Of a DNA stretch of 64,000 nt, positions 14,378 to 57,796 are shown in pieces. The position numbers and the translations under genes were made by a program. Origin of the DNA: an uncultured Gammaproteobacteria bacterium. Lineage in GTDB: Bacteria > Patescibacteriota > Microgenomatia > UBA8517. Each line of letters begins with the position of its first letter. Positions within the stretch are counted from its first letter, which is position 1. The stretch spans positions 65,617 through 129,616 of the forward strand of contig CAZOUV010000001.1 of the NCBI GenBank assembly GCA_964583105.1. The letters run 5' to 3'. The notes under the pieces were generated by a model. The model saw only the letters and a program-made list of their open reading frames with translations. It made no database searches and was not told where the DNA came from.

Positions 14378-14380
14378 ATT

Positions 14381-16060: not shown

Positions 16061-16071
16061 TGTCTACATAA

Positions 16072-24152: not shown

Positions 24153-24176
24153 ACTCAAAGTATATATAATAATAGT
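24153..24176. promoter_or_regulatory. Divergent promoter region (TATATAAT) between 22320(-) and 24177(+)
   Basis: 24-nt AT-only gap 'actcaaagtatatataataatagt' between divergently oriented starts. Confidence 0.25.
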
Positions 24177-26517: not shown

Positions 26518-26822
26518 GAAAGTATATCTTATTGGTTTATTTTGTTCTTACCCTTTTTTTGCTGCTAAATATTTTAAATCCTAGAAAATATATTCTTTCG
26601 GGACTTGAAGCAGATAGAAATTTTACCAGACAGGAGTATTTGGGAGATGATTTGGGAAAAATATATAAAAACAGATTTGGGGTAGTCTTTTTTAATAAGG
26701 TTTACCCCGGGTTTATAAAGCTGGAATCAAATTTCTTCTCCGATTTGGGTAACATGTTTGTCTTTGTGCCTCTTTTCGGAATTTTATTATATGCAGGGTT
26801 AAAGAAGTTTAATGAGAAATAA
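26514..26822 (+). CDS. Small two-TM membrane protein (possible membrane anchor/partner for the adjacent DPM1-like GT2)
   Basis: 102 aa, hydrophobic helices at both termini; ATGA-coupled between a GT2 and a PMT-like gene. Confidence 0.35.
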   Translation: MRKYILLVYFVLTLFLLLNILNPRKYILSGLEADRNFTRQEYLGDDLGKIYKNRFGVVFFNKVYPGFIKLESNFFSDLGNMFVFVPLFGILLYAGLKKFNEK

Positions 26823-28404
26823 GTATTTTATATTATCTTTGATTGTGGTTTTGGCATTTGTCTTGAGATTTTATAAACTAGGAGAAGTTCCTTTGGGTTT
26901 TCATCAAGATGAAGTTTCTCAAGCCTACAATTCTTTTTCGGTTTTAAATACAGGGAGAGACCGTTATGGAGAATTATTGCCGATTTTATTTCGCTCTTTC
27001 GGTTCATATCAACCTCCCGTTTATACATACCTAACCCCTATTCCGATTTTTCTTTTTGGAAATACAATATTTGCTGCTAGGTTTACATCTGCCATATTTG
27101 GAGTTTTTATAGTTGCTGTTACTTATTTAATCGTTCTGACTTTGGTAAGGCATAAATATCAGCATAATTTGGCACTTTTATCGGCATTTACTATTGCAAT
27201 TTCACCTTGGTCCATACATTTCAGCAGAAGAGTAGTTGAAGGAAATTTGGGTCTTTTCTTTTTTCTTCTTTCCTTCTATTTATTTTTTCTGTCCTTTAAG
27301 AAAATTAAGTATTTTTTACCCGCGTGTCTTGTTTTAGGAATTTCAACCCACGCCTATTATTCGGAAAGGCTGATAAGTGTAATATTTCTTCCTGTTTTTC
27401 TTCTGTTTTTTAAATCATATTTTTTGAAATATAAAAAGATTGTGGTTGGCGGACTTATTGTTTTTTGTCTGGTTCTAATACCTCATTTAATAACCGTTGT
27501 GTCAGGAGCATTTTTTTCAAGATTTAATCAGGTGGGTTCATCCGGAAGCAGTTTTTTCTTGATTGAATTTATTAAACATTTTATAAGCTATTTTTCGCCC
27601 AAATATCTTTTTAGTGATGCGGGTAGCGGCTTGGCTCGCGTATCACCGAATCTGGGAGTCTTTTACGATTGGTTTTTCTTTCCTTTTTTAATCGGACTTT
27701 ATTATTTGGGCAAAATAATCGATGTTAAATATCTCAAGTTTCTGGGAATATTTACACTGATATCTCTCATACCGGTATCTTTGACGGGAGATGTATTTTA
27801 CCCTCTCAGGGCACTTGAATTTTTTTGGCTTCTTTCTTTTGTTATTTCGATTGGAATATTCAGAGCGGGAGAAATAATAAAACACAAAATAATTAAAAAA
27901 CTGATATTTTGTACTTTAATTGTGTATTCGCTGGGGAGTTTTTACGTTTCATATTTTGTTTTGTTTCAGCATGAAACTACAGAAAATGCCGGAAATACAT
28001 ATGTCAAGCTGTCTCAGGAATTAGAAAATTACAATGAATATAAAATTGTTTTGGATTCTACAAGAGATACCGCAGCGGGATTAAGAATGGCCTATTTTAG
28101 GAAATACGACCCCTTAAAACTTCAAGCATCCCTTAAAAATCAGCTTACGACGCCTTATTACAGCAGCAAGGTTGATCTTCAGGAACTTTATGTAGTTGAT
28201 AATATAGAGGCAAGATCTATTGATTGGAGAAAGGACAGGTGCAGTCCAAAGACAATTTTGGTCGGAGACAGTTTGGCGTTTTCGGATGAACAAATTAAGG
28301 AACACAATCTTAAAAAAGCTTTTGAAATAAAAGGTGTAAATAAAAATGTTGTACTTTACGGATACGAGACGAATCCCGATAAAAAGTGCATAATTAGTTT
28401 ATGA
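26812..28404 (+). CDS. PMT/ArnT-like GT-C glycosyltransferase, tandem paralog 2
   Basis: 'FHQDEVSQAYNSFSVLNTGRDRYGELLPILFRSFG...QPPVYTYL'. Confidence 0.65.
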   Translation: MRNKYFILSLIVVLAFVLRFYKLGEVPLGFHQDEVSQAYNSFSVLNTGRDRYGELLPILFRSFGSYQPPVYTYLTPIPIFLFGNTIFAARFTSAIFGVFIVAVTYLIVLTLVRHKYQHNLALLSAFTIAISPWSIHFSRRVVEGNLGLFFFLLSFYLFFLSFKKIKYFLPACLVLGISTHAYYSERLISVIFLPVFLLFFKSYFLKYKKIVVGGLIVFCLVLIPHLITVVSGAFFSRFNQVGSSGSSFFLIEFIKHFISYFSPKYLFSDAGSGLARVSPNLGVFYDWFFFPFLIGLYYLGKIIDVKYLKFLGIFTLISLIPVSLTGDVFYPLRALEFFWLLSFVISIGIFRAGEIIKHKIIKKLIFCTLIVYSLGSFYVSYFVLFQHETTENAGNTYVKLSQELENYNEYKIVLDSTRDTAAGLRMAYFRKYDPLKLQASLKNQLTTPYYSSKVDLQELYVVDNIEARSIDWRKDRCSPKTILVGDSLAFSDEQIKEHNLKKAFEIKGVNKNVVLYGYETNPDKKCIISL

Positions 28405-30050
28405 AGAAATATATATTACCGATTATTTTGACAGTAATTATCGTGTTGGCTTTTGGCCTGAGGTTTTATAAAGTTAAAACTATTCCACCTTCTCTAAATT
28501 GGGATGAAACCTCAATTGCCTATAATGCTTATTCAATACTAAAAACAGGCAGGGATGAATGGGGAAAGTCCTTTCCGCTTCATTTTAAATCTTACGGGGA
28601 ATATAAACTTCCGGCTCAAGTGTACGCTTCTATTCCTGGGATTTTTATTTTCGGTTTAAATGAGTTTGGAGTAAGGATTACTCCGGTAATTTACGGAACA
28701 TTAACGGTTTTACTTCTGTATTTTTTGGTTCAGGAAGCTTTCAGAAAAAAATCAGTATCGTTAATTTCGGCATTTTTATTAGCTGTTTCTCCATGGCACA
28801 TTCAATTAACCAGAGCATCTTTTGAATCATCATTTGCTCTTTTTTGGATTGTTGCGGGTATTTGGTTTTTGATTAAAGGTTTAAAGAAACCAAAATGGCT
28901 TATTTTTTCCATGATTCCTTTTGTAATCTCTGTGTATACATATAACTCCGCAAGGGTATTTACTCCGTTATTTTTATTTACCCTAGCAGTACTTTTCAGA
29001 AAGTATTTCTGGGAAAAGAGAAAATGGTTTTTAATTGCAGGAGCTTTATTTGCTGTTTTAATGCTTCCGCTTGTTCCTTTTGTTCTTTCCGGAGAAGCCT
29101 CGGCAAGATATAAGCTGGTAAGCATAACCGATGAAAAAGGACTGATTCCAAGAATAAATGAAAGAAGGGGGGCATCGACTCTTCCGTGGATATTTCCCAG
29201 AGCGGTTCATAATAAAGTAACCTATTTAAGTTTTTATTTTGCTAAAAACTATTTGGCCCACTTTACTCCCGATTTCCTTTTTGTAAATGGTGCAGGGCAC
29301 AGACAGCATCATGTGCAGGGGGTAGGGGAACTTTATTGGTTTCAGGCGCCATTTTTGCTCTTGGGAGTATTTTTCCTGATTAAAAAGAAAGACAGGAATT
29401 TAAAAATACTTATTCCTTGGCTTTTAATTGCATTTATTCCGGTTGCCATGACAAACGATAGTATTCCCAACGCATTAAGAACTTTAAATGCGGCTCCCGT
29501 ATATCAAATATTTTCTGCTCTGGGAATTTACTATTTGTGTACATTAATTAAAAACAAAAAAATATTTTATGTTCTAATGGGAATTTCAATATTGTTGTTT
29601 TTGGTTAATTTTTCTGTTTACCTTAAAAATCTATTTGTTGACTATTCCGTTAAGTATTCGCGTGACTGGCAGTATGGAAATAAAGAGGTTGTGGAATATA
29701 TAAAAAATAATCAGGATAAATATGATTTAATTACCTTTACAAGACATTATGGGGAGCCCCACATGTTTACTCTTTTTTACCTTAATTACGACCCCAATAA
29801 ATTTCAAAACAGTCCGAATATGGATAGATTTGAAACATACGATTGGGTAAGGGTTTTAAGATTTGATAAATTTTATTTTCCGGATCTTGGAGATGAAGGA
29901 ACCAAATATCAGGATGTGGTCAACGAAAATCCGGGAAAGAAGATACTATTTATTGGTAAACCTGGAGATTTCCCGAGCTACTTACCAAGGCTTTTGACTG
30001 TAAATTTCTTAAATGGCGATCTTGCTTTTGAAATCGTTGAAAAGAGATGA
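28401..30050 (+). CDS. PMT/ArnT-like GT-C glycosyltransferase, tandem paralog 3
   Basis: 'NWDETSIAYNAYSILKTGRDEWGKSFPLHFKSYGEYKLPAQVY', 'SPWHIQLTRASFES'. Confidence 0.65.
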   Translation: MKKYILPIILTVIIVLAFGLRFYKVKTIPPSLNWDETSIAYNAYSILKTGRDEWGKSFPLHFKSYGEYKLPAQVYASIPGIFIFGLNEFGVRITPVIYGTLTVLLLYFLVQEAFRKKSVSLISAFLLAVSPWHIQLTRASFESSFALFWIVAGIWFLIKGLKKPKWLIFSMIPFVISVYTYNSARVFTPLFLFTLAVLFRKYFWEKRKWFLIAGALFAVLMLPLVPFVLSGEASARYKLVSITDEKGLIPRINERRGASTLPWIFPRAVHNKVTYLSFYFAKNYLAHFTPDFLFVNGAGHRQHHVQGVGELYWFQAPFLLLGVFFLIKKKDRNLKILIPWLLIAFIPVAMTNDSIPNALRTLNAAPVYQIFSALGIYYLCTLIKNKKIFYVLMGISILLFLVNFSVYLKNLFVDYSVKYSRDWQYGNKEVVEYIKNNQDKYDLITFTRHYGEPHMFTLFYLNYDPNKFQNSPNMDRFETYDWVRVLRFDKFYFPDLGDEGTKYQDVVNENPGKKILFIGKPGDFPSYLPRLLTVNFLNGDLAFEIVEKR

Positions 30051-31435
30051 AAAGAATCGGTTTTTTTCTAAAAAACAACCTTTTACTTATACTTGTTCTT
30101 TCTGTTTTTTTAGTATCCCGTTTTTATAAAATAAGTCAGATTCCTTCTTCAGTTTATTGGGATGAGGCCTCAATCGGCTACAATGCATATTCGGTCTTAA
30201 AAACAGGAAAAGACGAGTGGGGAGAGTTTCTTCCGCTTCATTTTAGAGCATTTGGTGAATTTAAGCTTCCTGTTTATATCTATTCTGTAATGATCGCCGA
30301 ATCGGTGTTTGGATTAACACCACTGGCGGTAAGATTGCCGTCGGTTATTTACGGACTCTTTTCCATTCTGGGATTATATTTATTAACAAAAAAGATAACA
30401 GATAATAAAAAAATAGCTCTTATTTCTTCATTTTTGTTTAGTTTTATGCCGTGGTATTTTATTTTTTCCAGAACCGGTTATGAGGCAGTTGCCGGACTTA
30501 CGTTTTTTATTTATGCTATCTACTTTTTAATACTTTCGTTTGAAAAGAAAAGTTTCTTAATTATCTCTTCCTTTCTATTTATTTTGTCATTTTACAGCTA
30601 TAACAGTTTTAGGATTTTGGTTCCGTTATTCTTTCTTTCGGGACTGGTTGTTTATTATTTGAAAAACAAAAAACAAGGGACATTGGTTATTTTTGTTTCC
30701 TTGATAGTATTTTTATTAAGCTTATTTCCTGTTTATAAGTTATATCGGCAGGATTTTGGGTTAAACAGACTGCAAACGGTAGGAGTAACTCAAGGCCTGA
30801 TAAAAAATTATTTGACCCACTTGTCTTTTGATTTTTTGTTTGCCAGCGGCGATTCAAATCCGAGAAGTCAAATTCCGGGCAGCTCTCAACTTTTCTTAAT
30901 TGATTTACCTTTTGTTATATTGGGGTTAATCTATATCTTTAAGAAAAAGAACATTAAATATTATCTTATATTAATTACACTTCTAGCCTCTTTTATTCCT
31001 GCGGCAATTACCCGAGAATCTCCACACGCACTAAGAAGTATAACTGTGGCACCTTTATTTGCTTTAATTTCTTCATTCGGAATATATTTTTCTTTAGAGC
31101 TATTTAAGAAAAACAATAATAAAAATAAAAAATATTTATTAACAGGGATTATATCTTTATATCTGATTTATTTTGGTGTTTATTATTACAAATTTATAAC
31201 CAAATACAATTTGTTAACTTCAACAGACTGGCAGTATCCTTACAAAGAAATATTTACTACACAAAAAGAAGGCAAAGTTTCGGATAAATATGCTCAGCCT
31301 TATATTTTTGCTCTTTTTTACGGAAAAGTTGATCCAAAGGTATTTATCGAAACCAAGAAGTTGAATCCCGTTTCCGATTGGGGATTTTCGACAGTTAAGT
31401 CTTTTGATAAATTTGAATTTGTTAAATATGAGTAA
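30047..31435 (+). CDS. PMT/ArnT-like GT-C glycosyltransferase, tandem paralog 4
   Basis: 'YWDEASIGYNAYSVLKTGKDEWGEFLPLHFRAFGEFKLPVYIY'. Confidence 0.65.
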   Translation: MKRIGFFLKNNLLLILVLSVFLVSRFYKISQIPSSVYWDEASIGYNAYSVLKTGKDEWGEFLPLHFRAFGEFKLPVYIYSVMIAESVFGLTPLAVRLPSVIYGLFSILGLYLLTKKITDNKKIALISSFLFSFMPWYFIFSRTGYEAVAGLTFFIYAIYFLILSFEKKSFLIISSFLFILSFYSYNSFRILVPLFFLSGLVVYYLKNKKQGTLVIFVSLIVFLLSLFPVYKLYRQDFGLNRLQTVGVTQGLIKNYLTHLSFDFLFASGDSNPRSQIPGSSQLFLIDLPFVILGLIYIFKKKNIKYYLILITLLASFIPAAITRESPHALRSITVAPLFALISSFGIYFSLELFKKNNNKNKKYLLTGIISLYLIYFGVYYYKFITKYNLLTSTDWQYPYKEIFTTQKEGKVSDKYAQPYIFALFYGKVDPKVFIETKKLNPVSDWGFSTVKSFDKFEFVKYE

Positions 31436-32972
31436 AAAACTAACCTATCTTTTTTTAACGATTATTGTTTTAGCATCTGTTGTTACCAGATTCTATAAAC
31501 TGGGAAAAGTTCCGGTTGGTTTTACATGGGATGAAGCAGCAGTTGGTTATAATGCCTATACGATTCTTCATTGGGGGAAAGATGAATGGGGAAAAACTCT
31601 TCCTATTACTTTTAAATCTTTTGGGGATGACAAAAATCCGGCTCACGTATATTTGACTGCTCCTTTTGTTGGAATTTTTGGATTAAACGAGTGGGCAACA
31701 AGAGCTTCATCGGCTTTTTTCGGGGTACTACTTGTATTTATATCATTTTTCCTGGCAAAGACACTGTTTAAAAGTAGGACCATCGGTTTAATTACTGCGC
31801 TTTTTTTAAGCATATCGCCCTTTAATATTCAATTTTCCCGTTTCAATCATGAACTTAATTTTGCCGTTTTTTTCTTCATGGCAGGAATCTACCTCTTTTT
31901 TAAGGGATTAAGAAAGAAAAACTGGATGGTTATTCTATCTTTTGTTTTTTTGGGGTTGGACCTTCTTACATACCAAAGCGCTAAAGTAGTTACCCCGATA
32001 CTTGTAATTTTGTTAATAATCTTAAATATTAAAAAACTTTTAAAAGTAAAAAAGTATTTTATTGCAGGGTTGGTTATTTATTTATTATTTGTTAGTCTTC
32101 TTTTTATCAAACCTCAGTTATTGGGTGGGGCCAGATTAAAGCAAACTTCGATAGCGGAACCAAAAGTTGTATTAGCAAGGTATTTTGAGTACTTCAGCCC
32201 TAAATTCTTGTTTGTTTCGGGGGATGACAATCCACGTCACTCGATTCAGACGGTAGGTACTTTTTACTGGCTTGACTTACCTCTTCTTATTATCGGTTTA
32301 TTGGTAGTTTTGTGGAGACTTTTTGTTAAAAAAGATACAAAAATGCTTTTTTTACTGACATGGGTATTTTTGGCTCCCTTGCCCGGAGCGGCCAGTAGCA
32401 GCTTGCCCCATGTCTCCCGTGCTATGTTTATTACAGGAAGCTGGTTGATGATATCCGCTTTGGGAGCATATACGGTAATTTCAATACTGAAAAATAAATA
32501 CTACCGAATAATAATGGGTATTTTGTTGGTTGTGGTCTCGGGATATTTTCTGTCAAGGTATCTTAAAGACTATTTTGTCAAATACGATCAAAGGTATGCA
32601 ATAGAATGGATTTACGGAATGAAAGATATCGTTAAATTTGCGGATAAATTTGATTTTGACAGGGTTTATATGACGGAAAGCATGATGCAGCCTTATATAT
32701 TTTTCCTGTATTATCTGCAAACACCTCTGCCTGAATATTTAAGTTCCGTAAAATACAATGAAACCAAAAGTGCTCCTTCAAACGTGGTTTATTCCTACGG
32801 GAAATATCAGTTTATTTGGGATGAATACCAAAGTGTTCCCTACATGGGAGCTCTTTATGTTGTAAGACCCAGCGTCTATGACGGGCTTTTTTATAAAATG
32901 AGCTTTGATGTTGTCAAACTGATAAAATATCCTGACGGGACGGATGCATTCTATTTGGTTGTGGGGCACTAG
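31428..32972 (+). CDS. PMT/ArnT-like GT-C glycosyltransferase, tandem paralog 5
   Basis: ATG at 31428 (ATGAGTAA overlap with upstream stop; an upstream in-frame start at 31404 is also possible); 'TWDEAAVGYNAYTILHWGKDEWGKTLPITFKSFGDDKNPAHVY'. Confidence 0.65.
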   Translation: MSKKLTYLFLTIIVLASVVTRFYKLGKVPVGFTWDEAAVGYNAYTILHWGKDEWGKTLPITFKSFGDDKNPAHVYLTAPFVGIFGLNEWATRASSAFFGVLLVFISFFLAKTLFKSRTIGLITALFLSISPFNIQFSRFNHELNFAVFFFMAGIYLFFKGLRKKNWMVILSFVFLGLDLLTYQSAKVVTPILVILLIILNIKKLLKVKKYFIAGLVIYLLFVSLLFIKPQLLGGARLKQTSIAEPKVVLARYFEYFSPKFLFVSGDDNPRHSIQTVGTFYWLDLPLLIIGLLVVLWRLFVKKDTKMLFLLTWVFLAPLPGAASSSLPHVSRAMFITGSWLMISALGAYTVISILKNKYYRIIMGILLVVVSGYFLSRYLKDYFVKYDQRYAIEWIYGMKDIVKFADKFDFDRVYMTESMMQPYIFFLYYLQTPLPEYLSSVKYNETKSAPSNVVYSYGKYQFIWDEYQSVPYMGALYVVRPSVYDGLFYKMSFDVVKLIKYPDGTDAFYLVVGH

Positions 32973-32984
32973 AATGCACTAGGA

Positions 32985-33851
32985 ATGAAGATTATGAAAA
33001 AAAAGCTATCGGTGGTACTTGCCACAAGAAACGAAGAAAATAATATCGAAAGATGCATAAATTCGGTGAAGGAAATTGCCGATGAAATTGTTGTTGTTGA
33101 TGAGTATTCAACAGACAAAACCAGAGAAATCGCCCAAAAGTTGGGAGCAAAAGTATTTTTGGAAAAACACCATGATATTTTCCACATAACAAAGCAAATT
33201 GCCCTTGAGAAAGCAATGGGGGAATGGATTTTACAATTGGATGCTGATGAGGTTGTTACTACGGAACTTGCCGAAGAAATAAAGACGATCCTTAACGGAG
33301 AAAAATCAACTGTTGATACCAACAAACAAAGACTTTTTGAAAAACACCAAAAATTAATCGAAAATAGGGACGGAAAAGTAGGAAAAGAAGACGGTGAAAT
33401 TGCAGGTTATTTTATAGCCCGTAAAAACATGTTTTTGGGAAAACCTCTGATTCATGCGGGAGTATATCCCGATGGGGTAATAAGGTTGGTTATGAAAGGA
33501 AAGGCCGGATTTCCCCAAAAGTCTGTACATGAACAGATATCGGTTGACGGAAAAGTATCGTGGTTGAATTCCGATCTGGAACATTATGATTCACCAACCC
33601 TAAGAAGATACTTTGAACGGATGAACCGCTATACGGATCTGCATGCCGAAGAACTAAACGAAAGAAAAGCTCCCAAAAATATTTTATATTTTATTTATTA
33701 TTCATTTTTTAAATCTTTCTGTGTTTTTATTAATTTATTTATACTTCACAAAGGTTTTTTGGACGGAGTATATGGTTTTTTCTGGAGTTTATTTTCTTCT
33801 TGGCATTATCCGGTTGCGTATTTTAAATATTTAACCAAAAAGGTAGCATAA
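32985..33851 (+). CDS. Family 2 glycosyltransferase (paralog of 4975 and 6722)
   Basis: 'LSVVLATRNEENNIERCINSVKEIADEIVVVDEYSTDKT', 'LQLDADEVV'; A8 tract in codons 4-7. Confidence 0.65.
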   Translation: MKIMKKKLSVVLATRNEENNIERCINSVKEIADEIVVVDEYSTDKTREIAQKLGAKVFLEKHHDIFHITKQIALEKAMGEWILQLDADEVVTTELAEEIKTILNGEKSTVDTNKQRLFEKHQKLIENRDGKVGKEDGEIAGYFIARKNMFLGKPLIHAGVYPDGVIRLVMKGKAGFPQKSVHEQISVDGKVSWLNSDLEHYDSPTLRRYFERMNRYTDLHAEELNERKAPKNILYFIYYSFFKSFCVFINLFILHKGFLDGVYGFFWSLFSSWHYPVAYFKYLTKKVA

Positions 33852-33854
33852 ATT

Positions 33855-34583
33855 ATGGAATTAAAAGGAAAAACTATACTGATAACGGGTGCAAGTAAGG
33901 GAATGGGCAATTCCATAACTAAGAAACTAGCTAAAGATGGAGTTAATCTTATACTTGTTGCCAGAAACGAGGATAATTTAAAAGATTTAGTAAAGAGTTT
34001 GGGTGAGGGAAGACATAAATATTATTCCTGCGACCTTGGGAAACAGGAAGAGGTTACAAAACTTGCAGAAAATATATCCAAAGATTACGAAAAGATAGAT
34101 GTTCTTATAAACGGAGCGGGTATTGGGATTTATAAGCCGATAGAGGAAGTAACTTATGAGGAGTGGAGAAATTCTTTTGCGGTAGGTCTTGATGCCGTTT
34201 ACTTTCTGACTCAAAAATTGCTTCCGCTTCTTGATAAGTCCGAAAAGCCTTTGGTAATTAATATTGGATCTGGCATGGGGGTAATTCCTGCTCCCGGAAG
34301 AAGTGTCTATTGTTCACTCAAATTTGCGCTAAGAGGAATGACACTAAGTCTTGCGGAAGAATTTAAAAGAACCAAGACACAATTTGTACTTCTTACCTTG
34401 GGAAGTGTTCTTACTGGTTTTGGTCCCAAAAGCCTGGAAGAGAAAAAAAGCGAAGGAAAAGCCTATTTGACTCCGGAATGGGTAGCGGATAGAGTTTCGG
34501 AGATAATCAAGGAAGACGGCAAAGAGGTGGAATACACTTTTTATCCTTCAGATTACAAAGAAGAGTGGGAAGCTGTAAAATAG
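33855..34583 (+). CDS. Short-chain dehydrogenase/reductase (SDR) family oxidoreductase
   Basis: 'ILITGASKGMGNS' Rossmann motif, 'NGAG', catalytic 'YCSLK' (YxxxK). Confidence 0.75.
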   Translation: MELKGKTILITGASKGMGNSITKKLAKDGVNLILVARNEDNLKDLVKSLGEGRHKYYSCDLGKQEEVTKLAENISKDYEKIDVLINGAGIGIYKPIEEVTYEEWRNSFAVGLDAVYFLTQKLLPLLDKSEKPLVINIGSGMGVIPAPGRSVYCSLKFALRGMTLSLAEEFKRTKTQFVLLTLGSVLTGFGPKSLEEKKSEGKAYLTPEWVADRVSEIIKEDGKEVEYTFYPSDYKEEWEAVK

Positions 34584-34587
34584 TAGT

Positions 34588-35580
34588 ATGCGAGTCGGAA
34601 TTGATCTTGGCGGAAGTCATGGTGGGCATGAAGAAAGAGGAATAGGAGTACATACAAACGAGCTATTTAATGCCCTTAAATCCTTAAAAAGTAAGGAAGT
34701 TGAAATATCAGAGTATAAACCCGGGAATAAATACGATCTTGTTCATTACACGGTATTTAAGCCTTTCAGTTTTTCGCTTCCTTTTAAAAAACCCGCCAAA
34801 AAAGTCGTTCTGACGATACATGATTTTATTCCTCTTATTTATCCCAAGCATTACCCTTCCGGAATTAAGGGAAAAATAATTTTTCTAATTCAGAAGTATC
34901 TTATTAAGAAAAATGTTGATGCGATAATTACCATTTCCGAGACATCCAAGAAAGATATCTGCAGGTTTTTGGGAGTTAGTCCTGAAAAAGTATATGTTAT
35001 CTACCTTGCACCAAAGAAGATATTTAAAAAAATAGAAGATGAGAAAGTAAAAAGGGAAATAATTGAAAAATACGATCTTCCTAAGAAATTTGTTCTTTAT
35101 GTCGGGGACGTAAATTACAACAAAAACATTCCCAATTTAATAAAAGCTGCAAAACTTGCCAAATTACCTTTGGTTATCTGTGGCAAGCAGGCAAAAGAAA
35201 TTGAAACAAAAGATCTTAATCATCCAGAACTTTTGCATTTGAAAAACATTGATTGGTCGGGTGTTTTAAGATTGGGTTTTGTTTCGGATGAAGACCTTGG
35301 TGTTATCTATAATTTGGCAACTGTTTATTGTCAGCCTTCTTTATATGAAGGTTTCGGACTTCCTGTTTTGGAGGCTTTATCTTGCGGCTGTCCCGTGGTT
35401 GCTTCCAAAACACAAGCATTGATTGAAATTGCCGAAGATTTAGGAGTTTTTGTTGACCCCAAAGATCCTATGGATATCGCCAAGGGCATAAATAATTTTG
35501 TAAGACCCTCAAAACCACCAAGAGAATATTCTTGGGAAAAAACTGCAAAAGAAACACGATCCCTCTATGAAAAAATCTGA
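34588..35580 (+). CDS. GT4 (GT-B) glycosyltransferase
   Basis: C-terminal 'EGFGLPVLEALSCGCPVVASK' motif; ~330 aa. Confidence 0.7.
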   Translation: MRVGIDLGGSHGGHEERGIGVHTNELFNALKSLKSKEVEISEYKPGNKYDLVHYTVFKPFSFSLPFKKPAKKVVLTIHDFIPLIYPKHYPSGIKGKIIFLIQKYLIKKNVDAIITISETSKKDICRFLGVSPEKVYVIYLAPKKIFKKIEDEKVKREIIEKYDLPKKFVLYVGDVNYNKNIPNLIKAAKLAKLPLVICGKQAKEIETKDLNHPELLHLKNIDWSGVLRLGFVSDEDLGVIYNLATVYCQPSLYEGFGLPVLEALSCGCPVVASKTQALIEIAEDLGVFVDPKDPMDIAKGINNFVRPSKPPREYSWEKTAKETRSLYEKI

Positions 35581-36748
35581 TTTTAAATTCCTGATAGGTT
35601 CTTTTTTAAGTTGGAGAATAATTCTTTTTATAGTTTCTTTTTTTTCAACAATACTAATTCCAGTTTTTGGAAACAGATTTCCTTATGCAGATAGAGTACT
35701 TGAAGTAACAAAACTTCCTTCGTGGATCTGGGGTTTTGGAAACTTCGATGGGGTGCACTATTTAAGGATTGCCCAGAATTTATATTCTTCCGATTTTACC
35801 CAAGCCTTTTTCCCTTTATATCCTCTTATAATTCGATTTTTTAATATTTTTCCAAAAAATGGTTTTTTGAATTTAAGATTATTTACAGATCCTTCTTATT
35901 TTTATACCGCTATGGTTTTGTCGGTAATAATTTTTGCTACTGCTTTATACTTTTTGTTTAAGTTATTTTCCGAAACATACGGAAAACAAATTGCAAAAAT
36001 ATCGATACTTATTTTGCTTTCTTTTCCGACGGCGTTTTATTTCGGATCGGTATATTCGGAGTCTTTGTTTTTACTACTTACGGTTTTAACTTTTTGGTTT
36101 GTTAAAAAGGACAATTTTATAGTTGCGGGTATATTTGCTGCTTTGGCCTCTGCAACAAAAATTCAAGGGGTTTTATTATTAGTATTTTTAATAATTGAAC
36201 TGATTAGTAAATATAAAGAAGGTATCAAAAAATTAAGGAATGAAATTGTTAGGGATATTTTAGGAATAATTCTTGCTCCATCAGGACTTATTTTTTATAT
36301 GATCTATCTAAAGAATTTAACCGGTAATTATTTTTATTTTCTTACTTCACAACCAGCTTTCGGGGCAGAAAGAAGTAGTATCCCCATGGTTCTACTTCCT
36401 CAGGTAATTTACAGATATTTTAAGATTATTTTTACAGTAAACCCTTTAAGTTTGCCGTTTTTTAATGCTTTTATGGAGCTTTCTCTAAGTATTGTAGTTA
36501 TAACACTTCTAATTATTGCATTTAAGAAAATGAGGTTTTCCTATTGGCTGTTTTCATTTTTGGTGGTTGTTTTGCCTACCTTGACGGGTACACTGTCTTC
36601 AATGCCCAGATATGTACTTTTGGTTTTTATGTTAATTCCTTTTATTGCAGAGAAATTTAAGAAAAGAACCAAATACATTATAATTGTCCAATCCGTTTTA
36701 CAAATTATTCTATTGGGACTTTTTGTCAGGGGTTATTGGGTAGCATGA
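35567..36748 (+). CDS. PIG-V/GPI-mannosyltransferase-II-like (GT76-like) GT-C membrane glycosyltransferase
   Basis: 'FGNFDGVHYLRIAQNLYSSDFTQAFFPLYPL' matches the PIG-V family 'WDaeHFlhIAe.GY...AFFPLyP' signature; ~9-10 TM. Confidence 0.5.
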   Translation: MKKSDFKFLIGSFLSWRIILFIVSFFSTILIPVFGNRFPYADRVLEVTKLPSWIWGFGNFDGVHYLRIAQNLYSSDFTQAFFPLYPLIIRFFNIFPKNGFLNLRLFTDPSYFYTAMVLSVIIFATALYFLFKLFSETYGKQIAKISILILLSFPTAFYFGSVYSESLFLLLTVLTFWFVKKDNFIVAGIFAALASATKIQGVLLLVFLIIELISKYKEGIKKLRNEIVRDILGIILAPSGLIFYMIYLKNLTGNYFYFLTSQPAFGAERSSIPMVLLPQVIYRYFKIIFTVNPLSLPFFNAFMELSLSIVVITLLIIAFKKMRFSYWLFSFLVVVLPTLTGTLSSMPRYVLLVFMLIPFIAEKFKKRTKYIIIVQSVLQIILLGLFVRGYWVA

Positions 36749-37983
36749 AAGAAAAAATAAAAATCTTTATGAAACACCCTCTTTTTAGCGGGAGTGCAAT
36801 TATGGTTGGTGGTACTATGATGGCCAATGTAATTAACTACGTTTACCATCTGGTGATGGGAAGGAACTTGGGACCGGTTGATTATGGTGTTTTGGCAAGT
36901 ATTTATTCTATCCTTTACCTTGTAGGAATTATTCCCACCTCGGCAAGTATGGCTATTGTGAAGTTTGTTTCTTCTGCTGAACACCAAGAAGTATATTCGA
37001 TTTTCCACGCAATTAGAAAATTTGTTTTCAAACTTTCGATATTTTTATCAATTTTAGTTTTCTTTTTATCTCCTTTAATTTCAGATTTTTTAAAAATTCA
37101 AAATCCGCTTTCGATAATGCTCATATCACCCATATTATTTTTGACTTTAACGACATTAGTTAACCAGTCTACTTCACAGGGCTTATTGAAGTTTACTGGA
37201 ACAGTAATACCTACCCTGATCTCTTCGCTTATAAAGTTATTTTTGGGATTACTGTTGGTTTTTCTTGGTTGGTCGGTTGTTGGGGCTACGTTTGCAATTG
37301 TGGTTGGACTAGGCTTGGCTTTTGTTTATAGTCACCTTTTCATTAAGAGAATTTTACCAAAAACTAAAATTAAAAAATACGATTTGAAAAAGTTTTTTAA
37401 ATATTCTATTCCGGTACTTCTACAGGCACTTGCATTCACATCTCTTTTTTCGACAGATGTTTTACTAGTTAAACATTTCTTTGATCCCTTTCAGGCAGGT
37501 ATATATGCCGCGTTGTCTACTTTGGGAAAAATCATTTATTTTGCCACATCTCCCGTTGTTGCGACCATGTTTCCTATCGTTTCTAAAAGACAAAACACTG
37601 GTGAGAATTACAGAAAAGTTTTTTGGCTTACAATGCTTGCTGTATTCGGGATTTCGTCAATTGTTACTTTGCTTTATTGGCTTTTCCCTGGTGTTGCCAT
37701 AAACCTACTTTATGGTTCAGAATATCTTTTAGCTAAAGGCTATCTTGCTTGGATGGGTTTATTTATGCTCTTTTTTGCTTTGACCCATCTTCTCATAAAT
37801 TACTCATTATCCTTGGGAAAAGTGAAAGTGGTGGCGATACCGTTGGTTGGGGCTTTTTTGCAGATAATATTAATCTGGTTTTTGCACAACGATATTCTTA
37901 CTGTTATTAAAATATCCTTGATAATCACTATTGTGATGTTTTTGTCTGTTGGGGTATATTTGAAGTATAATTCAAAACAATGA
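36736..37983 (+). CDS. wzx: Wzx-like oligosaccharide flippase (second copy)
   Basis: ~12 TM; 'SGSAIMVGGTMMANVINYVYHLVMGRNLGPVDYGVLAS' typical flippase N-terminus. Confidence 0.6.
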   Translation: MGSMKEKIKIFMKHPLFSGSAIMVGGTMMANVINYVYHLVMGRNLGPVDYGVLASIYSILYLVGIIPTSASMAIVKFVSSAEHQEVYSIFHAIRKFVFKLSIFLSILVFFLSPLISDFLKIQNPLSIMLISPILFLTLTTLVNQSTSQGLLKFTGTVIPTLISSLIKLFLGLLLVFLGWSVVGATFAIVVGLGLAFVYSHLFIKRILPKTKIKKYDLKKFFKYSIPVLLQALAFTSLFSTDVLLVKHFFDPFQAGIYAALSTLGKIIYFATSPVVATMFPIVSKRQNTGENYRKVFWLTMLAVFGISSIVTLLYWLFPGVAINLLYGSEYLLAKGYLAWMGLFMLFFALTHLLINYSLSLGKVKVVAIPLVGAFLQIILIWFLHNDILTVIKISLIITIVMFLSVGVYLKYNSKQ

Positions 37984-38711
37984 AATTTCTTTCGGTTATA
38001 GTCCCTGCATACAAACAGGAAAAAACCATAAAACAGGATTTAAAAAATATTGTTTCTACCCTTGAAAATGGACTTATTGGTACAGACTTTGAAGTAATAT
38101 GCGTTGTTGATGGTTTTTTGGACAGAACTTTTGAAAATGCAAAAAGTATAAAATCCGAAAAGCTCAAGGTTTTTGGATATAAAGAAAATAAAGGCAAGGG
38201 ATTTGCGGTTAGGTATGGAATGAAGAGGGCAAAGGGTGACCTAATCTCCTTTTTGGATGCGGGAATGGAAATAAGCCCCAAAAGCGTAATGATGCTTATG
38301 GCTCATCTCGAATGGTATAACGCTGATATTATTGTTGGCTCCAAAAGACATTCTGTATCAAGAGTCAATTATTCTCTTACAAGAAAAATTATCAGTTTTT
38401 TTTATCACGTTGGGGTAAAAATACTTTTTGGACTTGACTTAAACGATACCCAGAGCGGGATAAAAATATTTAAAAGAAAGGTTGTTGAAAAGATACTCCC
38501 AAAACTTTTAGTGAAAAGATATGCCATGGATATAGAAATGCTTGCTTTAGCAAATCATATTGGTTTTGACCGTATCTTCGAGGGTCCAATCGAAGTACAT
38601 TTTGACAAAGAGACCAGTCGCGTTAACTGGAAAGATGGATTGAAAGCCATTTGGGATACTGTCGCAGTTTTTTATCGCCTCAAGATTTTAAGGTATTATG
38701 ACCGTAACTAG
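37980..38711 (+). CDS. GT2, DPM1-like polyprenol-phosphate glycosyltransferase
   Basis: 'LSVIVPAYKQEKTI...EVICVVDG', 'GYKENKGKGFAVRYGMKRAKGDLISFLDAG'; no TM. Confidence 0.6.
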   Translation: MKFLSVIVPAYKQEKTIKQDLKNIVSTLENGLIGTDFEVICVVDGFLDRTFENAKSIKSEKLKVFGYKENKGKGFAVRYGMKRAKGDLISFLDAGMEISPKSVMMLMAHLEWYNADIIVGSKRHSVSRVNYSLTRKIISFFYHVGVKILFGLDLNDTQSGIKIFKRKVVEKILPKLLVKRYAMDIEMLALANHIGFDRIFEGPIEVHFDKETSRVNWKDGLKAIWDTVAVFYRLKILRYYDRN

Positions 38712-40179
38712 TTTTGTTAAAAAACACAAACTATTACTGCCGGCAATTTTGGTTTTAATTTTGTTTTTTGGGCTTTATGGAAATACTCTTTTTATGTTTT
38801 TCTCACAGGATGATTTTTTTCACCTCAAACTTGGTCAATTATCAATAAACAATAATGTTTTAGATATTTTTTCTTTCAGATCATTTAATGACAGGGGCGG
38901 AGTATATTTTTACCGCCCGATTTTTAGAGAGTTGTTATATAAATATTTCTATCAGATATTCGGATTTAATTCTTTTCCTTTTCGTATTTTGCAGTTTTTA
39001 ATTCTGTTTCTTAATTCTTTCTTAATTTATTTTATTCAAATTAAGTTGACTAAATCCAAGTTTATTTCGATCTTCTCAAGTTTTTTTAGTTTGTTTGCGG
39101 TAGCCAATATCGGCGTGCTTTCCTATCTTGCGGGTGGAATTCAGGTTAGTGGGATGGTCTTTTTTTCTCTGTTATCCATAATTTTTTATCTTAAATATTT
39201 AGAAAAAGAATCTTTCTTAAAATTTTTTATATTCGTTATTTTTAATATTCTCGCACTATGCTCTCACGAAATATCTGTTTCATTACCGTTAATATATTTA
39301 CTTATTTATATATATGTTAGGGGTTTTACTAAAGAAAATATTATAAAAAGTTTAAAGTTGAATTTTTTTTCATTTTCATTAAGTATATCTCTTCTTGCGG
39401 CCGAGATTTTTGTGATAGGTCTTCCCTTAAATGAGGCTCAATACGGAATAAGTTTATCTTTAACAAAAATACTTAATTCATATTTTTGGTATGGACTATG
39501 GTCTTTGGGGATTCCCGAAATGCTTATTGATTTTGTAGGTCCGGGTTTTAATTTGAACCCAGATTTGATGCGCTTTTGGGGGGTATATTTTATCTTTATT
39601 TTCTCCTCGTTTGTCTGTTTATTGTTAATTTTTATTACGAATATCAAAAAAATAATAAATGACAAAAGGTTTTGGTTCTTTTCCGTATTTTTTATTTTAG
39701 GTATTTTTCCTGTAATTCTTGTTCCTTTACATAAACAATATGTCTATCTTTCTCTGGTTATTTTTGCTGTCGGAGCTATTCTGGGAATAATTGCTGAAAA
39801 AATAAAATCAAAAATATTTTTACTTGTTTTTATTTTTTCGGTTGTTGTTTTAAATATTTCCTCTATTTTTCTTGCTCAAAAAACATATTGGGCTTTAAGT
39901 AGAAATGAAATCTCTGAAGTTATTATTAATCAGATAAAAAGAGAATATCCTTCTCTTCCCAAGGGATCAAAAATATATATAATCAACGATCCAAATTACC
40001 CAAATTTGGGCAAAGATTGGGGAGGATCATCCACACAGGCTTCGGTTATTTTATCGGGCAGTGACGGTTTGCAAATGCTATATAATGATTTAATCCTGAA
40101 AGTTTATTATGAGGATATCAAAAAACCTGAAGCATACGATGAATTTATAGTTATTAGTCCAAGGGTAGAAAGAAAATAG
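38698..40179 (+). CDS. Polytopic membrane protein, 'QDD'-family-related (putative GT-C-like)
   Basis: 'MFFSQDDFFHLKLGQ' after TM1, the same F-x-QDD placement as 12701/14381/16072; ~11 TM, C-terminal soluble domain. Confidence 0.4.
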   Translation: MTVTSFVKKHKLLLPAILVLILFFGLYGNTLFMFFSQDDFFHLKLGQLSINNNVLDIFSFRSFNDRGGVYFYRPIFRELLYKYFYQIFGFNSFPFRILQFLILFLNSFLIYFIQIKLTKSKFISIFSSFFSLFAVANIGVLSYLAGGIQVSGMVFFSLLSIIFYLKYLEKESFLKFFIFVIFNILALCSHEISVSLPLIYLLIYIYVRGFTKENIIKSLKLNFFSFSLSISLLAAEIFVIGLPLNEAQYGISLSLTKILNSYFWYGLWSLGIPEMLIDFVGPGFNLNPDLMRFWGVYFIFIFSSFVCLLLIFITNIKKIINDKRFWFFSVFFILGIFPVILVPLHKQYVYLSLVIFAVGAILGIIAEKIKSKIFLLVFIFSVVVLNISSIFLAQKTYWALSRNEISEVIINQIKREYPSLPKGSKIYIINDPNYPNLGKDWGGSSTQASVILSGSDGLQMLYNDLILKVYYEDIKKPEAYDEFIVISPRVERK

Positions 40180-40180
40180 A

Positions 40181-53453: not shown

Positions 53454-53459
53454 AGAATA

Positions 53460-57738: not shown

Positions 57739-57796
57739 TGTCATTTATCCGAATTTATTGGACAAAACAGATTGTTTTAAATATACTTCTTCTCAT

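What the first reader, a model, noticed from the sequence alone, without database searches (positions are those of the whole stretch)
35567..36748. PIG-V (GPI mannosyltransferase II, GT76)-like enzyme in a bacterial locus
The 35567 protein carries 'FGNFDGVHYLRIAQNLY...AFFPLYPL', closely resembling the PIG-V/Gpi18 family signature (WD.xHFLxIAxxGY...AFFPLYP). PIG-V enzymes use dolichol-P-mannose in eukaryotes. Here it sits among DPM1-like GT2s, PMT-like GT-Cs and GT87-like proteins (17724, 18986). Together these look like a eukaryote/archaeal-style polyprenol-P-mannose glycosylation toolkit assembled in one bacterial locus.
Basis: partly seen in the sequence, partly recalled or inferred. Interest (0 to 1): 0.6.

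Follow-up and report, generated by a model that had tools for sequence, protein, structure and literature searches.

The report
PIG-V-like membrane glycosyltransferase of CPR bacteria
The gene is real and its front half is truly related to the eukaryotic GPI-anchor enzyme PIG-V, but it belongs to a very large, already-annotated family of Patescibacteria (CPR) membrane glycosyltransferases inside an ordinary bacterial cell-surface sugar locus, not to a borrowed eukaryote-style toolkit.

Summary
The ORF at 35567..36748 (+, 393 aa) and the quoted motifs are real.

Homology to true PIG-V covers only the N-terminal conserved GT-C module. hhalign against vertebrate PIGV gives 97-99% probability over about 200 columns at 22-24% identity. 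The C-terminal variable module, which binds the acceptor in solved GT-C enzymes, is not alignable. The PIG-V D/ExE loop signature is D-G-V here.

The AF2 model (pLDDT 85) matches only GT-C enzymes in the PDB. It has 11 TM helices, and the conserved D61, E165, R283 and R348 are inferred to lie on the outer face.

The protein belongs to a huge family (14,418 clusters at 50% identity). All named members are Patescibacteria, and databases already call them "mannosyltransferase family protein" or "Gpi18-like".

A GT4 lies directly upstream in 53 of 73 related loci. Dol-P-Man-synthase-like GT2s, Wzx flippases and many other GT-Cs surround it.

Best reading: an extracytoplasmic, polyprenol-phosphate-sugar-dependent glycosyltransferase that builds a surface glycoconjugate. 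Sugar and acceptor are unknown. There is no sign of recent transfer from eukaryotes or archaea. This is an ordinary new member of a known kind.

The parts
35567..36748 (+). PIG-V-like GT-C glycosyltransferase, 393 aa, about 11 TM helices. Residues ~1-252 form the conserved GT-C module, which is homologous to PIG-V. Residues ~253-393 form a family-specific variable module.
   Evidence: ORF. PF04188 39.8 bits vs cutoff 22.4. hhalign to vertebrate PIGV 97-99% probability, N-terminal only. AF2 pLDDT 84.9, pTM 0.89. Foldseek against the PDB finds only GT-C enzymes.
35735..35827 (+). First extracytoplasmic loop motifs F57-GNFDGVHYLRIAQNLY73 and A80-FFPLYPL87. D61 is the putative catalytic base and aligns with PIGV D67.
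   Evidence: D61 is invariant in 141 diverse representatives; H64, Y65, F81, F82 and P83 are invariant or nearly so; position 63 is V90/I16/E14/A8. Aligned to PIGV W66-D67-A-E69-H70-F71 and AFFPGFPL. The PIG-V signature is 'D/ExE + aromatic' (PMC6056205).
36053..36061 (+). Y163-S164-E165 motif, equivalent to PIGV Y168-S169-E170. Inferred to lie at an outer membrane boundary.
   Evidence: Y163 and E165 are each present in 139 of 141 representatives. Aligned to the invariant PIGV YSE.
36575..36613 (+). Family-specific loop P337-TLTGTLSSMPRY349 in the variable module. R348 is invariant and is a candidate donor-phosphate ligand. No counterpart could be aligned in PIG-V.
   Evidence: P337, G341 and R348 are invariant in 141 representatives. 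This region does not align to PIGV.
34588..35580 (+). GT4 (GT-B fold) glycosyltransferase, the conserved upstream partner. Its ORF overlaps the PIG-V-like start by 14 nt.
   Evidence: Pfam Glycos_transf_1 2.5e-29. Within 4.5 kb in 73 of 80 related loci. Immediately upstream on the same strand in 53 of 73. Best PDB sequence hits are MshA-like and other GT4 enzymes; PimA is weak.
32985..33851 (+). GT2 glycosyltransferase, 288 aa, a conserved member of the module.
   Evidence: Pfam Glycos_transf_2 3.5e-19. Present near the PIG-V-like gene in 61 of 80 loci.
33855..34583 (+). Short-chain dehydrogenase/reductase, a variable member of the module.
   Evidence: adh_short 8e-45. Present in 9 of 80 loci.
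36736..37983 (+). Wzx-type (MOP/Polysacc_synt_3) lipid-linked glycan flippase, abutting the PIG-V-like stop codon.
   Evidence: Polysacc_synt_3 6.3e-19. Within 4.5 kb in 13 of 80 loci. Immediately downstream in 8 of 77.
37980..38711 (+). DPM1/GtrB/ArnC-like GT2, the putative polyprenol-phosphate-sugar synthase that supplies the GT-C donor.
   Evidence: Best PDB sequence hit is P. furiosus Dol-P-Man synthase 5mlz at 2.3e-14, followed by GtrB sll0501 and ArnC. A GT2 of this type lies immediately downstream in 22 of 77 loci.
25780..26517 (+). Second DPM1-like GT2. In most related loci it is the best window match to the small GT2 found near the PIG-V-like gene.
   Evidence: Its only PDB hit is 5mlz Dol-P-Man synthase, 4.2e-7. 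It is the best match to a GT2 within 4.5 kb of the PIG-V-like gene in 55 of 80 loci.
26812..32972 (+). Four tandem PMT/PMT_2-type GT-C glycosyltransferases, conserved upstream of the module.
   Evidence: PMT_2 3.1e-10, 4.7e-12, 9e-9 and 2.1e-14; three of the four also pass PMT. Homologs lie upstream in most related loci.
38698..40179 (+). A further GT-C-like membrane protein, with a sub-threshold PMT_2 match.
   Evidence: PMT_2 3.9e-4, 21.1 bits vs cutoff 26.1. 17 hydrophobic segments by a simple hydropathy scan.

Best explanation
The gene encodes an integral-membrane GT-C (class GT-C(A)) glycosyltransferase of Patescibacteria/Microgenomates. Its N-terminal seven-helix conserved module is homologous to that of eukaryotic PIG-V/Gpi18 (Pfam PF04188, CAZy GT76). 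Its C-terminal variable module is specific to the CPR family. Proposed mechanism, inferred by analogy with solved GT-C enzymes: a DPM1/GtrB-like GT2 (w37980 or w25780) loads a sugar onto a bacterial polyprenol phosphate on the cytoplasmic face. The lipid-sugar is then flipped. The PIG-V-like enzyme uses D61 in the first outward-facing loop as catalytic base, and conserved Arg residues (R283, R348) hold the leaving phosphate. It transfers that single sugar, with inversion, onto a lipid- or membrane-anchored glycan on the outer face of the membrane. The acceptor is probably primed in the cytoplasm by the tightly coupled GT4 and the 288-aa GT2, then exported by the adjacent Wzx-type flippase. The product would be a cell-surface glycolipid, lipoglycan or polysaccharide, or a protein-linked glycan. 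Shown here: homology of the N-terminal module, the GT-C fold, the residue conservation pattern, the family's size and taxonomy, and the conserved synteny. Inferred: membrane topology, donor class, catalytic roles of the residues, and order of steps. Unknown: which sugar (mannose is not established), which linkage and which acceptor.
For: PF04188 is above cutoff for the window protein and for 60 of 60 close relatives. hhalign to database vertebrate PIGV gives 97.3% and 99.0% probability over 202 and 191 columns, including WD..HFL.IA..GY, AFFP..PL and YSE.LF. The AF2 model has pLDDT 84.9 and pTM 0.89. The 35 best Foldseek PDB matches, and 38 of the top 40, are GT-C enzymes: STT3, GPI-MT-I, Emb, AftA/B, ArnT, PimE, PglB, Pmt1/2 and ALG3/6/9/12, plus the GT-C-like PIG-U. 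There are about 11 TM helices. Lys/Arg-rich short loops at residues 181-183, 216-225, 320-323 and 362-369 and a Lys-rich N-terminus imply an N-in/C-out topology. That places D61, E165, R283 and R348 outside and matches the 11-TM PIGV model (PMC6801728). D61 and R348 are invariant, and E165, R283 and E304 nearly invariant, in 141 representatives of 31-53% identity. In GT-C(A) enzymes the catalytic base lies in the first helix of luminal loop 1, and Arg residues bind the donor phosphate (PMC13503287). Context: a DPM1-like GT2 and a Wzx flippase are adjacent in overlapping ORFs. A GT4 is immediately upstream in 53 of 73 loci. The 64-kb window holds nine GT-C ORFs above the PMT/PMT_2 cutoffs, three more below threshold, further YfhO/PTPS_related-like and GT87-like membrane proteins, 15 GT2, 4 GT4 and 2 Wzx, plus sugar-modifying enzymes and an MBOAT/AlgX-like pair.
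Against: There is no biochemical data for any member of this CPR family, and no paper on it was found. The second acid of the PIG-V D/ExE signature is Val here and in most members. The variable module has no detectable relative of known function. No GtrA-type small flippase was found in the window. The downstream partner varies between loci: DPM1-like GT2 in 22, dehydratase or epimerase in 21, Wzx in 8 and unmatched in 24 of 77. The DPM1-like GT2 is therefore not strictly coupled to this gene.
Confidence: 0.72

Rival explanations
1. It is a true functional counterpart of PIG-V. Together with the coupled GT4 (playing the role of PIG-A or PimA) and the DPM1-like GT2, it would add an alpha-1,6-mannose to a phosphoinositide- or GPI/PIM-like glycolipid anchor in CPR bacteria.
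For: Among curated families PF04188 is the best match, at 39.8 bits against 23.7 for GT87 and 23.8 for PMT_2. The conserved trio of GT4, PIG-V-like and DPM1-like GT2 mirrors PIG-A/PIG-V/DPM1 and PimA/PimE/Ppm1. The GT4's PDB sequence hits include inositol-phosphate (MshA) and PI (PimA) glycosyltransferases.
Against: Homology is limited to the generic conserved module. The acceptor-binding variable module is unrelated. Among all scanned ORFs there is no PIGA-domain, PIG-L/LmbE, PIG-M, PIG-B, EtNP-transferase or transamidase homolog, and no CDP-alcohol phosphatidyltransferase. The GT4 hits are generic and the PimA match is weak (5e-4). The second acid of the D/ExE signature is missing.
Confidence: 0.07
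2. It is a protein O-glycosyltransferase of the PMT type. It would transfer a sugar from polyprenol-P-sugar directly to Ser/Thr of secreted, S-layer or pilin proteins.
For: There are sub-threshold PMT_2 matches in the window protein and in 18 of 60 relatives. It sits directly downstream of four PMT/PMT_2 paralogs. Its only within-window BLAST hit is the PMT-type w58891.
Against: PMT_2 scores below its cutoff (23.8 vs 26.1). At 393 aa with short loops, the protein has no extramembrane domain of the kind PMT (MIR) and OST-type enzymes carry, according to the AF2 secondary structure. The tight coupling to a cytoplasmic GT4 suggests a glycan rather than a bare protein as acceptor.
Confidence: 0.13
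3. It was recently acquired by lateral transfer from a eukaryote or archaeon, as part of an imported 'eukaryote-style' glycosylation toolkit.
For: The gene's GC (30.2%) and GC3 (24.6%) are about 2 SD below the mean of the 52 window genes. The best curated family match is a family named after a eukaryotic enzyme.
Against: Identity to PIGV is only 22-24% and only over the N-terminal half. The family has 14,418 clusters at 50% identity, of which 1,386 score E<=1e-30. All named relatives are Patescibacteria. Synteny is conserved across at least eight Microgenomates lineages. The neighbouring stretch 38001-40000 is similarly AT-rich, at 30.5%.
Confidence: 0.03
4. It is a non-catalytic GT-C-like scaffold or substrate-presenting subunit, analogous to PIG-U.
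For: GT-C-fold proteins without catalytic function exist. PIG-U appears among the Foldseek hits (8imx_U and 7w72_U), and it lacks the loop-1 acidic motif (PMC6056205).
Against: The loop-1 Asp (D61) is invariant in 141 of 141 representatives, together with conserved E165, R283 and R348. That is the pattern expected of an active GT-C.
Confidence: 0.04

Closest known systems
PIG-V / Gpi18 (GPI mannosyltransferase II; Pfam PF04188, CAZy GT76)
   Same: The N-terminal conserved GT-C module is homologous (hhalign 97-99% probability). Shared motifs are [WF]-D-x-x-H-[FY]-L-x-I-A-x-x-G-Y, AFFPxxPL and Y-S/T-E-x-L-F. Both have about 11 TM helices with an inferred N-in/C-out topology. The PF04188 score is above the gathering cutoff.
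   Different: The protein is about 100 aa shorter (393 vs 493 aa). The C-terminal variable module cannot be aligned. Its PF04188 E-value is 4.6e-10 over 41% of the profile, against 4e-216 full-length for human PIGV. The second acid of D/ExE is Val. There is no GPI pathway context. The donor lipid must be a bacterial polyprenol rather than dolichol. Sugar, linkage and acceptor are unknown.
PimE (GT87) and the mycobacterial PIM/LM pathway (PimA/PimB' GT4, Ppm1 GT2, PimE/Mpt GT-C)
   Same: The system logic is the same: cytoplasmic GT4 steps, a DPM1-like polyprenol-P-sugar synthase, and then small (~380-430 aa) GT-C enzymes without large soluble domains acting outside. PimE (9dm5) is among the structural matches (TMq 0.43). 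GT87 gives weak hits in 24 of 60 relatives.
   Different: PF09594 scores below its cutoff (23.7 vs 25). There is no evidence for phosphatidylinositol in this organism. Sequence similarity is lower than to PIG-V.
Bacterial polyprenol-P-sugar/GT-C systems (GtrA/GtrB/GtrC, ArnC/ArnT, CsbB/GtcA/YfhO)
   Same: A DPM1/GtrB/ArnC-like GT2 lies next to GT-C transferases. ArnT is among the fold matches. YfhO- and PTPS_related-like GT-Cs are in the same window.
   Different: No GtrA/GtcA-type small flippase was found in the window. The GT-C here belongs to a different sequence family. The locus is far larger and also contains Wzx-dependent pathway genes.
NCBIfam NF046093, AZOBR_p60025 family 'cell surface glycopolymer formation protein'
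   Same: It is the only NCBIfam hit and covers the same N-terminal region (residues 59-214). It points to a bacterial surface-glycopolymer role for related GT-C modules.
   Different: The score is 21.4 bits against a cutoff of 150, so the protein is not a member. No literature on it was found.

Membership tests
Pfam PF04188 Mannosyl_trans2 / CAZy GT76 (PIG-V, Gpi18) | Score above the curated Pfam gathering threshold | tested here: met
   39.8 bits vs 22.4, E=4.6e-10. 60 of 60 close relatives match. However, 0 of 5 divergent members of the same full-length CPR family reach it, so the family lies at the edge of the model.
Pfam PF04188 Mannosyl_trans2 / CAZy GT76 (PIG-V, Gpi18) | Homology over the whole enzyme, including the C-terminal variable module | tested here: not met
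   Only profile positions 54-237 of 443 are matched. hhalign aligns CPR 4-214 with PIGV 6-219. Alternative and global modes give no confident C-terminal alignment.
Pfam PF04188 Mannosyl_trans2 / CAZy GT76 (PIG-V, Gpi18) | Loop-1 signature D/E-x-E followed by an aromatic residue (PMC6056205) | tested here: inconclusive
   The window protein has D61-G-V63-H-Y. The first acid is invariant. The second position is V/I/A in most of 141 representatives and E in 14. The His and the aromatic residue are kept.
Pfam PF04188 Mannosyl_trans2 / CAZy GT76 (PIG-V, Gpi18) | 11-TM topology, N-terminus in and C-terminus out (PMC6801728) | tested here: met
   The AF2 helices, 11 hydrophobic segments and the positive-inside pattern of the sequence agree with it. 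This is inferred, not measured.
Pfam PF04188 Mannosyl_trans2 / CAZy GT76 (PIG-V, Gpi18) | Activity: Dol-P-Man-dependent alpha-1,6-mannosylation of Man1-GlcN-(acyl)PI | not testable with these tools
   This needs biochemistry or complementation of gpi18 or PIG-V mutants.
Pfam PF04188 Mannosyl_trans2 / CAZy GT76 (PIG-V, Gpi18) | Genomic co-occurrence with other GPI-pathway enzymes (PIG-A with PIGA domain, PIG-L, PIG-M, PIG-B, transamidase) | tested here: not met
   None of these Pfam families was hit by any of the 53 long ORFs (at least 150 aa) scanned in the 64-kb window. The rest of the genome was not available.
GT-C superfamily, class GT-C(A) | GT-C fold: conserved N-terminal 7-TM module, helical first extracytoplasmic loop carrying an acidic catalytic base, and a variable C-terminal module | tested here: met
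   The 35 best Foldseek PDB matches, and 38 of the top 40, are GT-C or GT-C-like proteins, with probability 0.94-1.00 (two at 0.69) and TMq 0.30-0.51. Loop 1 (residues 31-108) holds helices 41-48, 52-57, 60-74 and 84-92, with the invariant D61 at the start of helix 60-74. The class definition is from PMC13503287.
GT-C superfamily, class GT-C(A) | Polyprenol-phosphate-linked sugar donor | not testable with these tools
   Only context supports it: Dol-P-Man-synthase-like GT2s at 37980 and 25780.
Pfam PF09594 GT87 (PimE-type) | Score above the gathering threshold | tested here: not met
   23.7 bits vs 25. 24 of 60 relatives match at E<0.01.
Pfam PF13231 PMT_2 (GT39/GT83-type) | Score above the gathering threshold | tested here: not met
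   23.8 bits vs 26.1. 18 of 60 relatives match at E<0.01.
NCBIfam NF046093 AZOBR_p60025 family | Score above the NCBIfam cutoff | tested here: not met
   21.4 bits vs 150.

The most novel reading that the evidence does not exclude
Microgenomates (CPR) bacteria may use the conserved GT4 + PIG-V-like GT-C + Dol-P-Man-synthase-like GT2 cassette to build a GPI/PIM-like membrane glycolipid anchor. The family would then be a bacterial sister, or even a precursor, of the eukaryotic GPI mannosyltransferase II step, and would bear on the prokaryotic origin of the GPI pathway.
Probability: 0.07. Interest if true: 0.7.

Novelty: new member of a known kind. Interest (0 to 1): 0.25.

Why it matters
The result mainly corrects a tempting over-interpretation. 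A 'PIG-V' label on a bacterial gene reflects the shared conserved module of GT-C enzymes, not a eukaryotic pathway.

What may be useful is the definition of a very large, uncharacterised, apparently Patescibacteria-wide GT-C family. It has a clear residue signature: F-D-G-x-H-Y, Y-[ST]-E, P-x-L-T-G-[ST]-x-S-S-x-P-R-Y and a C-terminal G-Y-W. It also has a conserved GT4 partner.

CPR bacteria are mostly uncultivated episymbionts, and their surface glycoconjugates are unknown. This cassette is a tractable candidate for heterologous reconstitution. The family also sits at the detection limit of PF04188: among a divergent branch of close orthologs about two-thirds carry no PF04188 tag and many are named 'hypothetical protein'. 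A dedicated family model would improve annotation.

Tried and rejected
- Sequence searches of the PDB with the single protein and with the family profile found nothing at E<=10. No PIG-V structure or close solved relative exists.
- The look-up of encoding contigs for the identical protein P0001 returned nothing.
- tblastn against PLSDB plasmids found no match.
- Literature searches for PF04188/COG5542/Gpi18-like, Patescibacteria + GT-C, CPR + S-layer glycosylation, Patescibacteria + mannosyltransferase, and AZOBR_p60025 found nothing on prokaryotic members.
- Fusion proteins in the family (P0275, P0290, P0292, P0315) were checked for informative partners. Only another GT-C-like (PTPS_related) domain or nothing was found.
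- A GtrA-type small flippase was sought in the window's gaps and not found.
- Recent lateral transfer was considered because GC and GC3 are about 2 SD low. It was rejected on family size, taxonomy and synteny.
- A three-domain phylogeny could not be built. The tools returned only vertebrate PIGV and CPR sequences.
- The human PIGV query sequence was recalled from memory. It was used only as bait and was validated by 97% identity to a database cluster named 'GPI mannosyltransferase 2'. All comparisons used database sequences (A2).
Full report
OBSERVATION. The ORF exists exactly as described: 35567..36748, + strand, ATG start, 393 aa. It contains F57-GNFDGVHYLRIAQNLY73 and A80-FFPLYPL87. Pfam PF04188 (Mannosyl_trans2, PIG-V) matches at E=4.6e-10 and 39.8 bits, against a gathering cutoff of 22.4. 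The match covers only protein residues 53-234, which is profile positions 54-237 of 443. GT87 (23.7 bits, cutoff 25) and PMT_2 (23.8 bits, cutoff 26.1) fall just below their cutoffs. NCBIfam gives only a far sub-threshold hit to NF046093, a 'cell surface glycopolymer formation protein' family. The stated refutation criterion, no significant PF04188 hit, is therefore not met. The motif resemblance is real homology.

HOW FAR THE HOMOLOGY GOES. I retrieved genuine PIGV sequences by querying with human PIGV recalled from memory. The hits confirmed it, with 97% identity to a cluster named 'GPI mannosyltransferase 2'. Only database sequences were used afterwards (alignment A2). Profile-profile comparison of 60 CPR homologs (A1) with vertebrate PIGV gives 97.3% probability and E=2.3e-11 over 202 columns at 24% identity. 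It aligns CPR 4-214 with PIGV 6-219. A broader profile of 141 representatives raises this to 99.0% and E=4.3e-18 over 191 columns. The aligned motifs are F60-D61-G-V-H64-Y with W66-D67-A-E69-H70-F, AFFPLYPL with AFFPGFPL, and Y163-S-E165-SLF with Y168-S-E170-ALF. Alternative-alignment and global modes recover nothing credible for the C-terminal halves. Human PIGV itself matches PF04188 at 4e-216 over its full length (PMC6056205). The PIG-V family signature 'D/ExE + aromatic' is only half present. D61 is invariant, but position 63 is V/I/A in most family members and E in 14 of 141.

FOLD AND TOPOLOGY. AlphaFold2 with the 60-sequence alignment gives a confident model (pLDDT 84.9, pTM 0.89). Foldseek against the PDB returns GT-C or GT-C-like proteins for the 35 best matches and for 38 of the top 40. 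They are STT3/AglB/PglB, C. glabrata GPI-MT-I (TMq 0.51), EmbA/B/C, AftA/AftB, ArnT, PimE, Pmt1-Pmt2, ALG3/6/9/12 and the GT-C-like PIG-U. E-values run from 2e-3 to 0.3 and TMq from 0.30 to 0.51. That establishes the GT-C fold but shows there is no close solved relative. PDB sequence searches are empty. The model and a hydropathy scan give about 11 TM helices. A Lys-rich N-terminus and Lys/Arg-rich short loops (residues 181-183, 216-225, 320-323, 362-369) imply an N-in/C-out topology, which matches the 11-TM model proposed for PIGV (PMC6801728). On that inferred topology the strictly conserved polar residues D61, E165, R283 and R348 face outward, and E304 lies near the outer end of its helix. 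In the GT-C(A) class, an N-terminal 7-TM conserved module carries the catalytic base in the first helix of luminal loop 1. Arg residues bind the donor phosphate, and the C-terminal variable module makes most acceptor contacts (PMC13503287; PMC12653191). What this protein shares with PIG-V is therefore the conserved module. The part that would dictate a PIG-V-like acceptor is not shared.

WHO HAS IT. The window is about 35% GC, with nearly all genes on one strand and no tRNA or Rfam hits. An identical protein is on a 151-kb NCBI contig. The 120 best homologs (51-68% identity) are from Patescibacteria. Where named they are Woesebacteria, Daviesbacteria or 'Patescibacteria group'. They are already called 'mannosyltransferase family protein' by NCBI or 'Gpi18-like mannosyltransferase' by JGI. 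A scan of one genome per GTDB species confirmed 173 relatives. The best 80 lie in Woese-, Davies-, Curtiss-, Gottesman-, Chisholm-, Collier- and Pacebacteria and WWE3, and the best is only 61% identical. Many records titled 'uncultured Gammaproteobacteria/Pseudomonadales' are co-assembly MAG placeholders with CPR-like content. That they are mislabelled is my inference.

An exhaustive HMM search of 1.84 billion representatives found 14,418 clusters at E<=1e-3, 9,227 at E<=1e-10 and 1,386 at E<=1e-30. The best 150 are mostly 365-415 aa and match full-length. A search seeded with one of the most divergent of them (P0388, 31% identity) again returned only Patescibacteria names. In that branch about two-thirds of the members have no PF04188 tag and many are named 'hypothetical protein'. 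Five such members were scanned directly and none reached PF04188. The family is thus large and coherent, apparently centred on CPR, and lies at the detection edge of PF04188. GT76 is also routinely reported in other bacteria by CAZy-based annotation, for example in planctomycetes (PMC5352709) and Myxococcus (PMC12211065).

CONTEXT. In 80 related loci, homologs of the window's GT4 (34588-35580) lie within 4.5 kb in 73. The GT4 is immediately upstream on the same strand in 53 of the 73 loci with enough flanking DNA. The 288-aa GT2 (32985-33851) is nearby in 61 of 80, and PMT/PMT_2 GT-C paralogs precede it in most. The downstream neighbour varies across 77 loci: a DPM1-like GT2 in 22, a dehydratase or epimerase in 21, and Wzx in 8. 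In the window, the ORFs from 32985 to 41311 abut or overlap by 4-14 nt, as in an operon. The small GT2s at 37980 and 25780 have Pyrococcus Dol-P-Man synthase (5mlz) as best or only PDB sequence hit, followed by GtrB and ArnC.

The whole 64-kb window is a surface-glycan island. Nine GT-Cs pass the PMT/PMT_2 cutoffs and three more match below threshold. There is a tandem trio of YfhO/PTPS_related-like proteins and a GT87-like pair. There are 15 GT2, 4 GT4 and 2 Wzx-type flippases, several methyltransferases including a sugar C-methyltransferase, a 4,6-dehydratase, a DegT aminotransferase, and an MBOAT/AlgX-like O-acylation pair. No GPI-pathway families (PIGA domain, PIG-L, PIG-M, PIG-B, transamidase) and no phosphatidyltransferase were hit.

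MECHANISM. This part is inferred. A DPM1/GtrB-like GT2 charges polyprenol phosphate with a sugar, and the lipid-sugar is flipped. The PIG-V-like GT-C then transfers the sugar, with inversion, to a glycan acceptor on the outer face. D61 would act as the base and R283/R348 would hold the phosphate. The acceptor is probably primed in the cytoplasm by the coupled GT4 and GT2 and exported by Wzx. The sugar identity, linkage and acceptor are unknown, so 'mannosyltransferase' is a name and not a finding.

RIVALS. Four alternative readings were weighed:
- A true GPI/PIM-like pathway (about 0.07). It is attractive because of the GT4/GT76-like/DPM1-like trio, but it lacks every other pathway marker and the variable module does not match.
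- A PMT-like protein O-glycosyltransferase (about 0.13). It cannot be excluded.
- Recent lateral transfer from eukaryotes or archaea (about 0.03). The only hint is GC and GC3 about 2 SD low. A neighbouring stretch of the locus is similarly AT-rich, and family size, taxonomy and synteny all contradict it.
- A non-catalytic scaffold (about 0.04). The invariant D61 argues against it.

VERDICT. The 'eukaryote/archaeal-style toolkit' and lateral-transfer framing is not supported. This is a new, uncharacterised member of a known kind that is already annotated, and its interest is modest.

Noticed in passing
window 277-63607 (whole window): An exceptional density of GT-C-type membrane glycosyltransferases in one 64-kb stretch. 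Nine ORFs pass the PMT/PMT_2 cutoffs and three more match below threshold. There are tandem paralog arrays (26812-32972 x4; 12686-17727 x3, YfhO/PTPS_related-like; 17724-20188 x2, GT87-like), plus 15 GT2, 4 GT4 and 2 Wzx. The whole window is a surface-glycan island in a small-genome CPR bacterium.
   Followed up: partly
window 61070-63607 (+): An MBOAT (PF03062, 1.2e-23) is followed by an AlgX-like SGNH protein (PF16822, 4.2e-10). This pairing resembles the AlgI/AlgX or PatA/PatB O-acetylation machinery for an exported polysaccharide.
   Followed up: no
window 51829-54488 (-) and 57683-58894 (+): A modified-sugar pathway: a sugar C-methyltransferase (Methyltransf_13/14), a 130-aa ORF at 53061-53453 (-) that looks like a cupin by eye (not scanned), an NDP-hexose 4,6-dehydratase and a DegT-type aminotransferase. 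Together they suggest a C-methylated amino-deoxy sugar.
   Followed up: no
window 3263-4978, 8824-10350, 17724-18989 (+) and 22320-24158 (-): Four large ORFs with no significant Pfam hit at E<=0.1. The only trace is a 13.7-bit MGAT4A_C match in w22320, whose cutoff is 42.9. The three on the + strand have 7-12 hydrophobic segments and may be further unclassified GT-C or polymerase-like proteins. The 612-aa ORF on the opposite strand was not characterised.
   Followed up: no
loci L002, L003, L005, L007, L009, L010 etc.: Many GTDB representative MAGs titled 'uncultured Gammaproteobacteria/Pseudomonadales bacterium' (and one 'Vitreimonas sp.') carry this Patescibacteria-type cassette at 36-61% identity with the same synteny. 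Their titles look like placeholder or wrong taxonomy.
   Followed up: no
proteins P0275 (980 aa), P0290 (946 aa), P0315 (1033 aa), P0292 (606 aa): In some metagenomic representatives the PIG-V-like protein forms the C-terminal part of a much longer protein. In P0275 the N-terminal part is a PTPS_related GT-C-like domain, giving a tandem GT-C fusion.
   Followed up: partly
window 35567-36748: The gene's GC (30.2%) and GC3 (24.6%) are about 2 SD below the mean of the 52 window genes. The stretch 38001-40000 is similarly AT-rich. The cause was not determined; it could be amino-acid composition, expression level or history.
   Followed up: partly
window 41315-41812 (+) and 7405-7803 (+): A DUF5667 protein (1.1e-11) and a 132-aa ORF sit inside the glycosylation island. 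Neither has an obvious role there. The 132-aa ORF looks like a MazG-type NTP pyrophosphohydrolase by eye only; it was not scanned.
   Followed up: no
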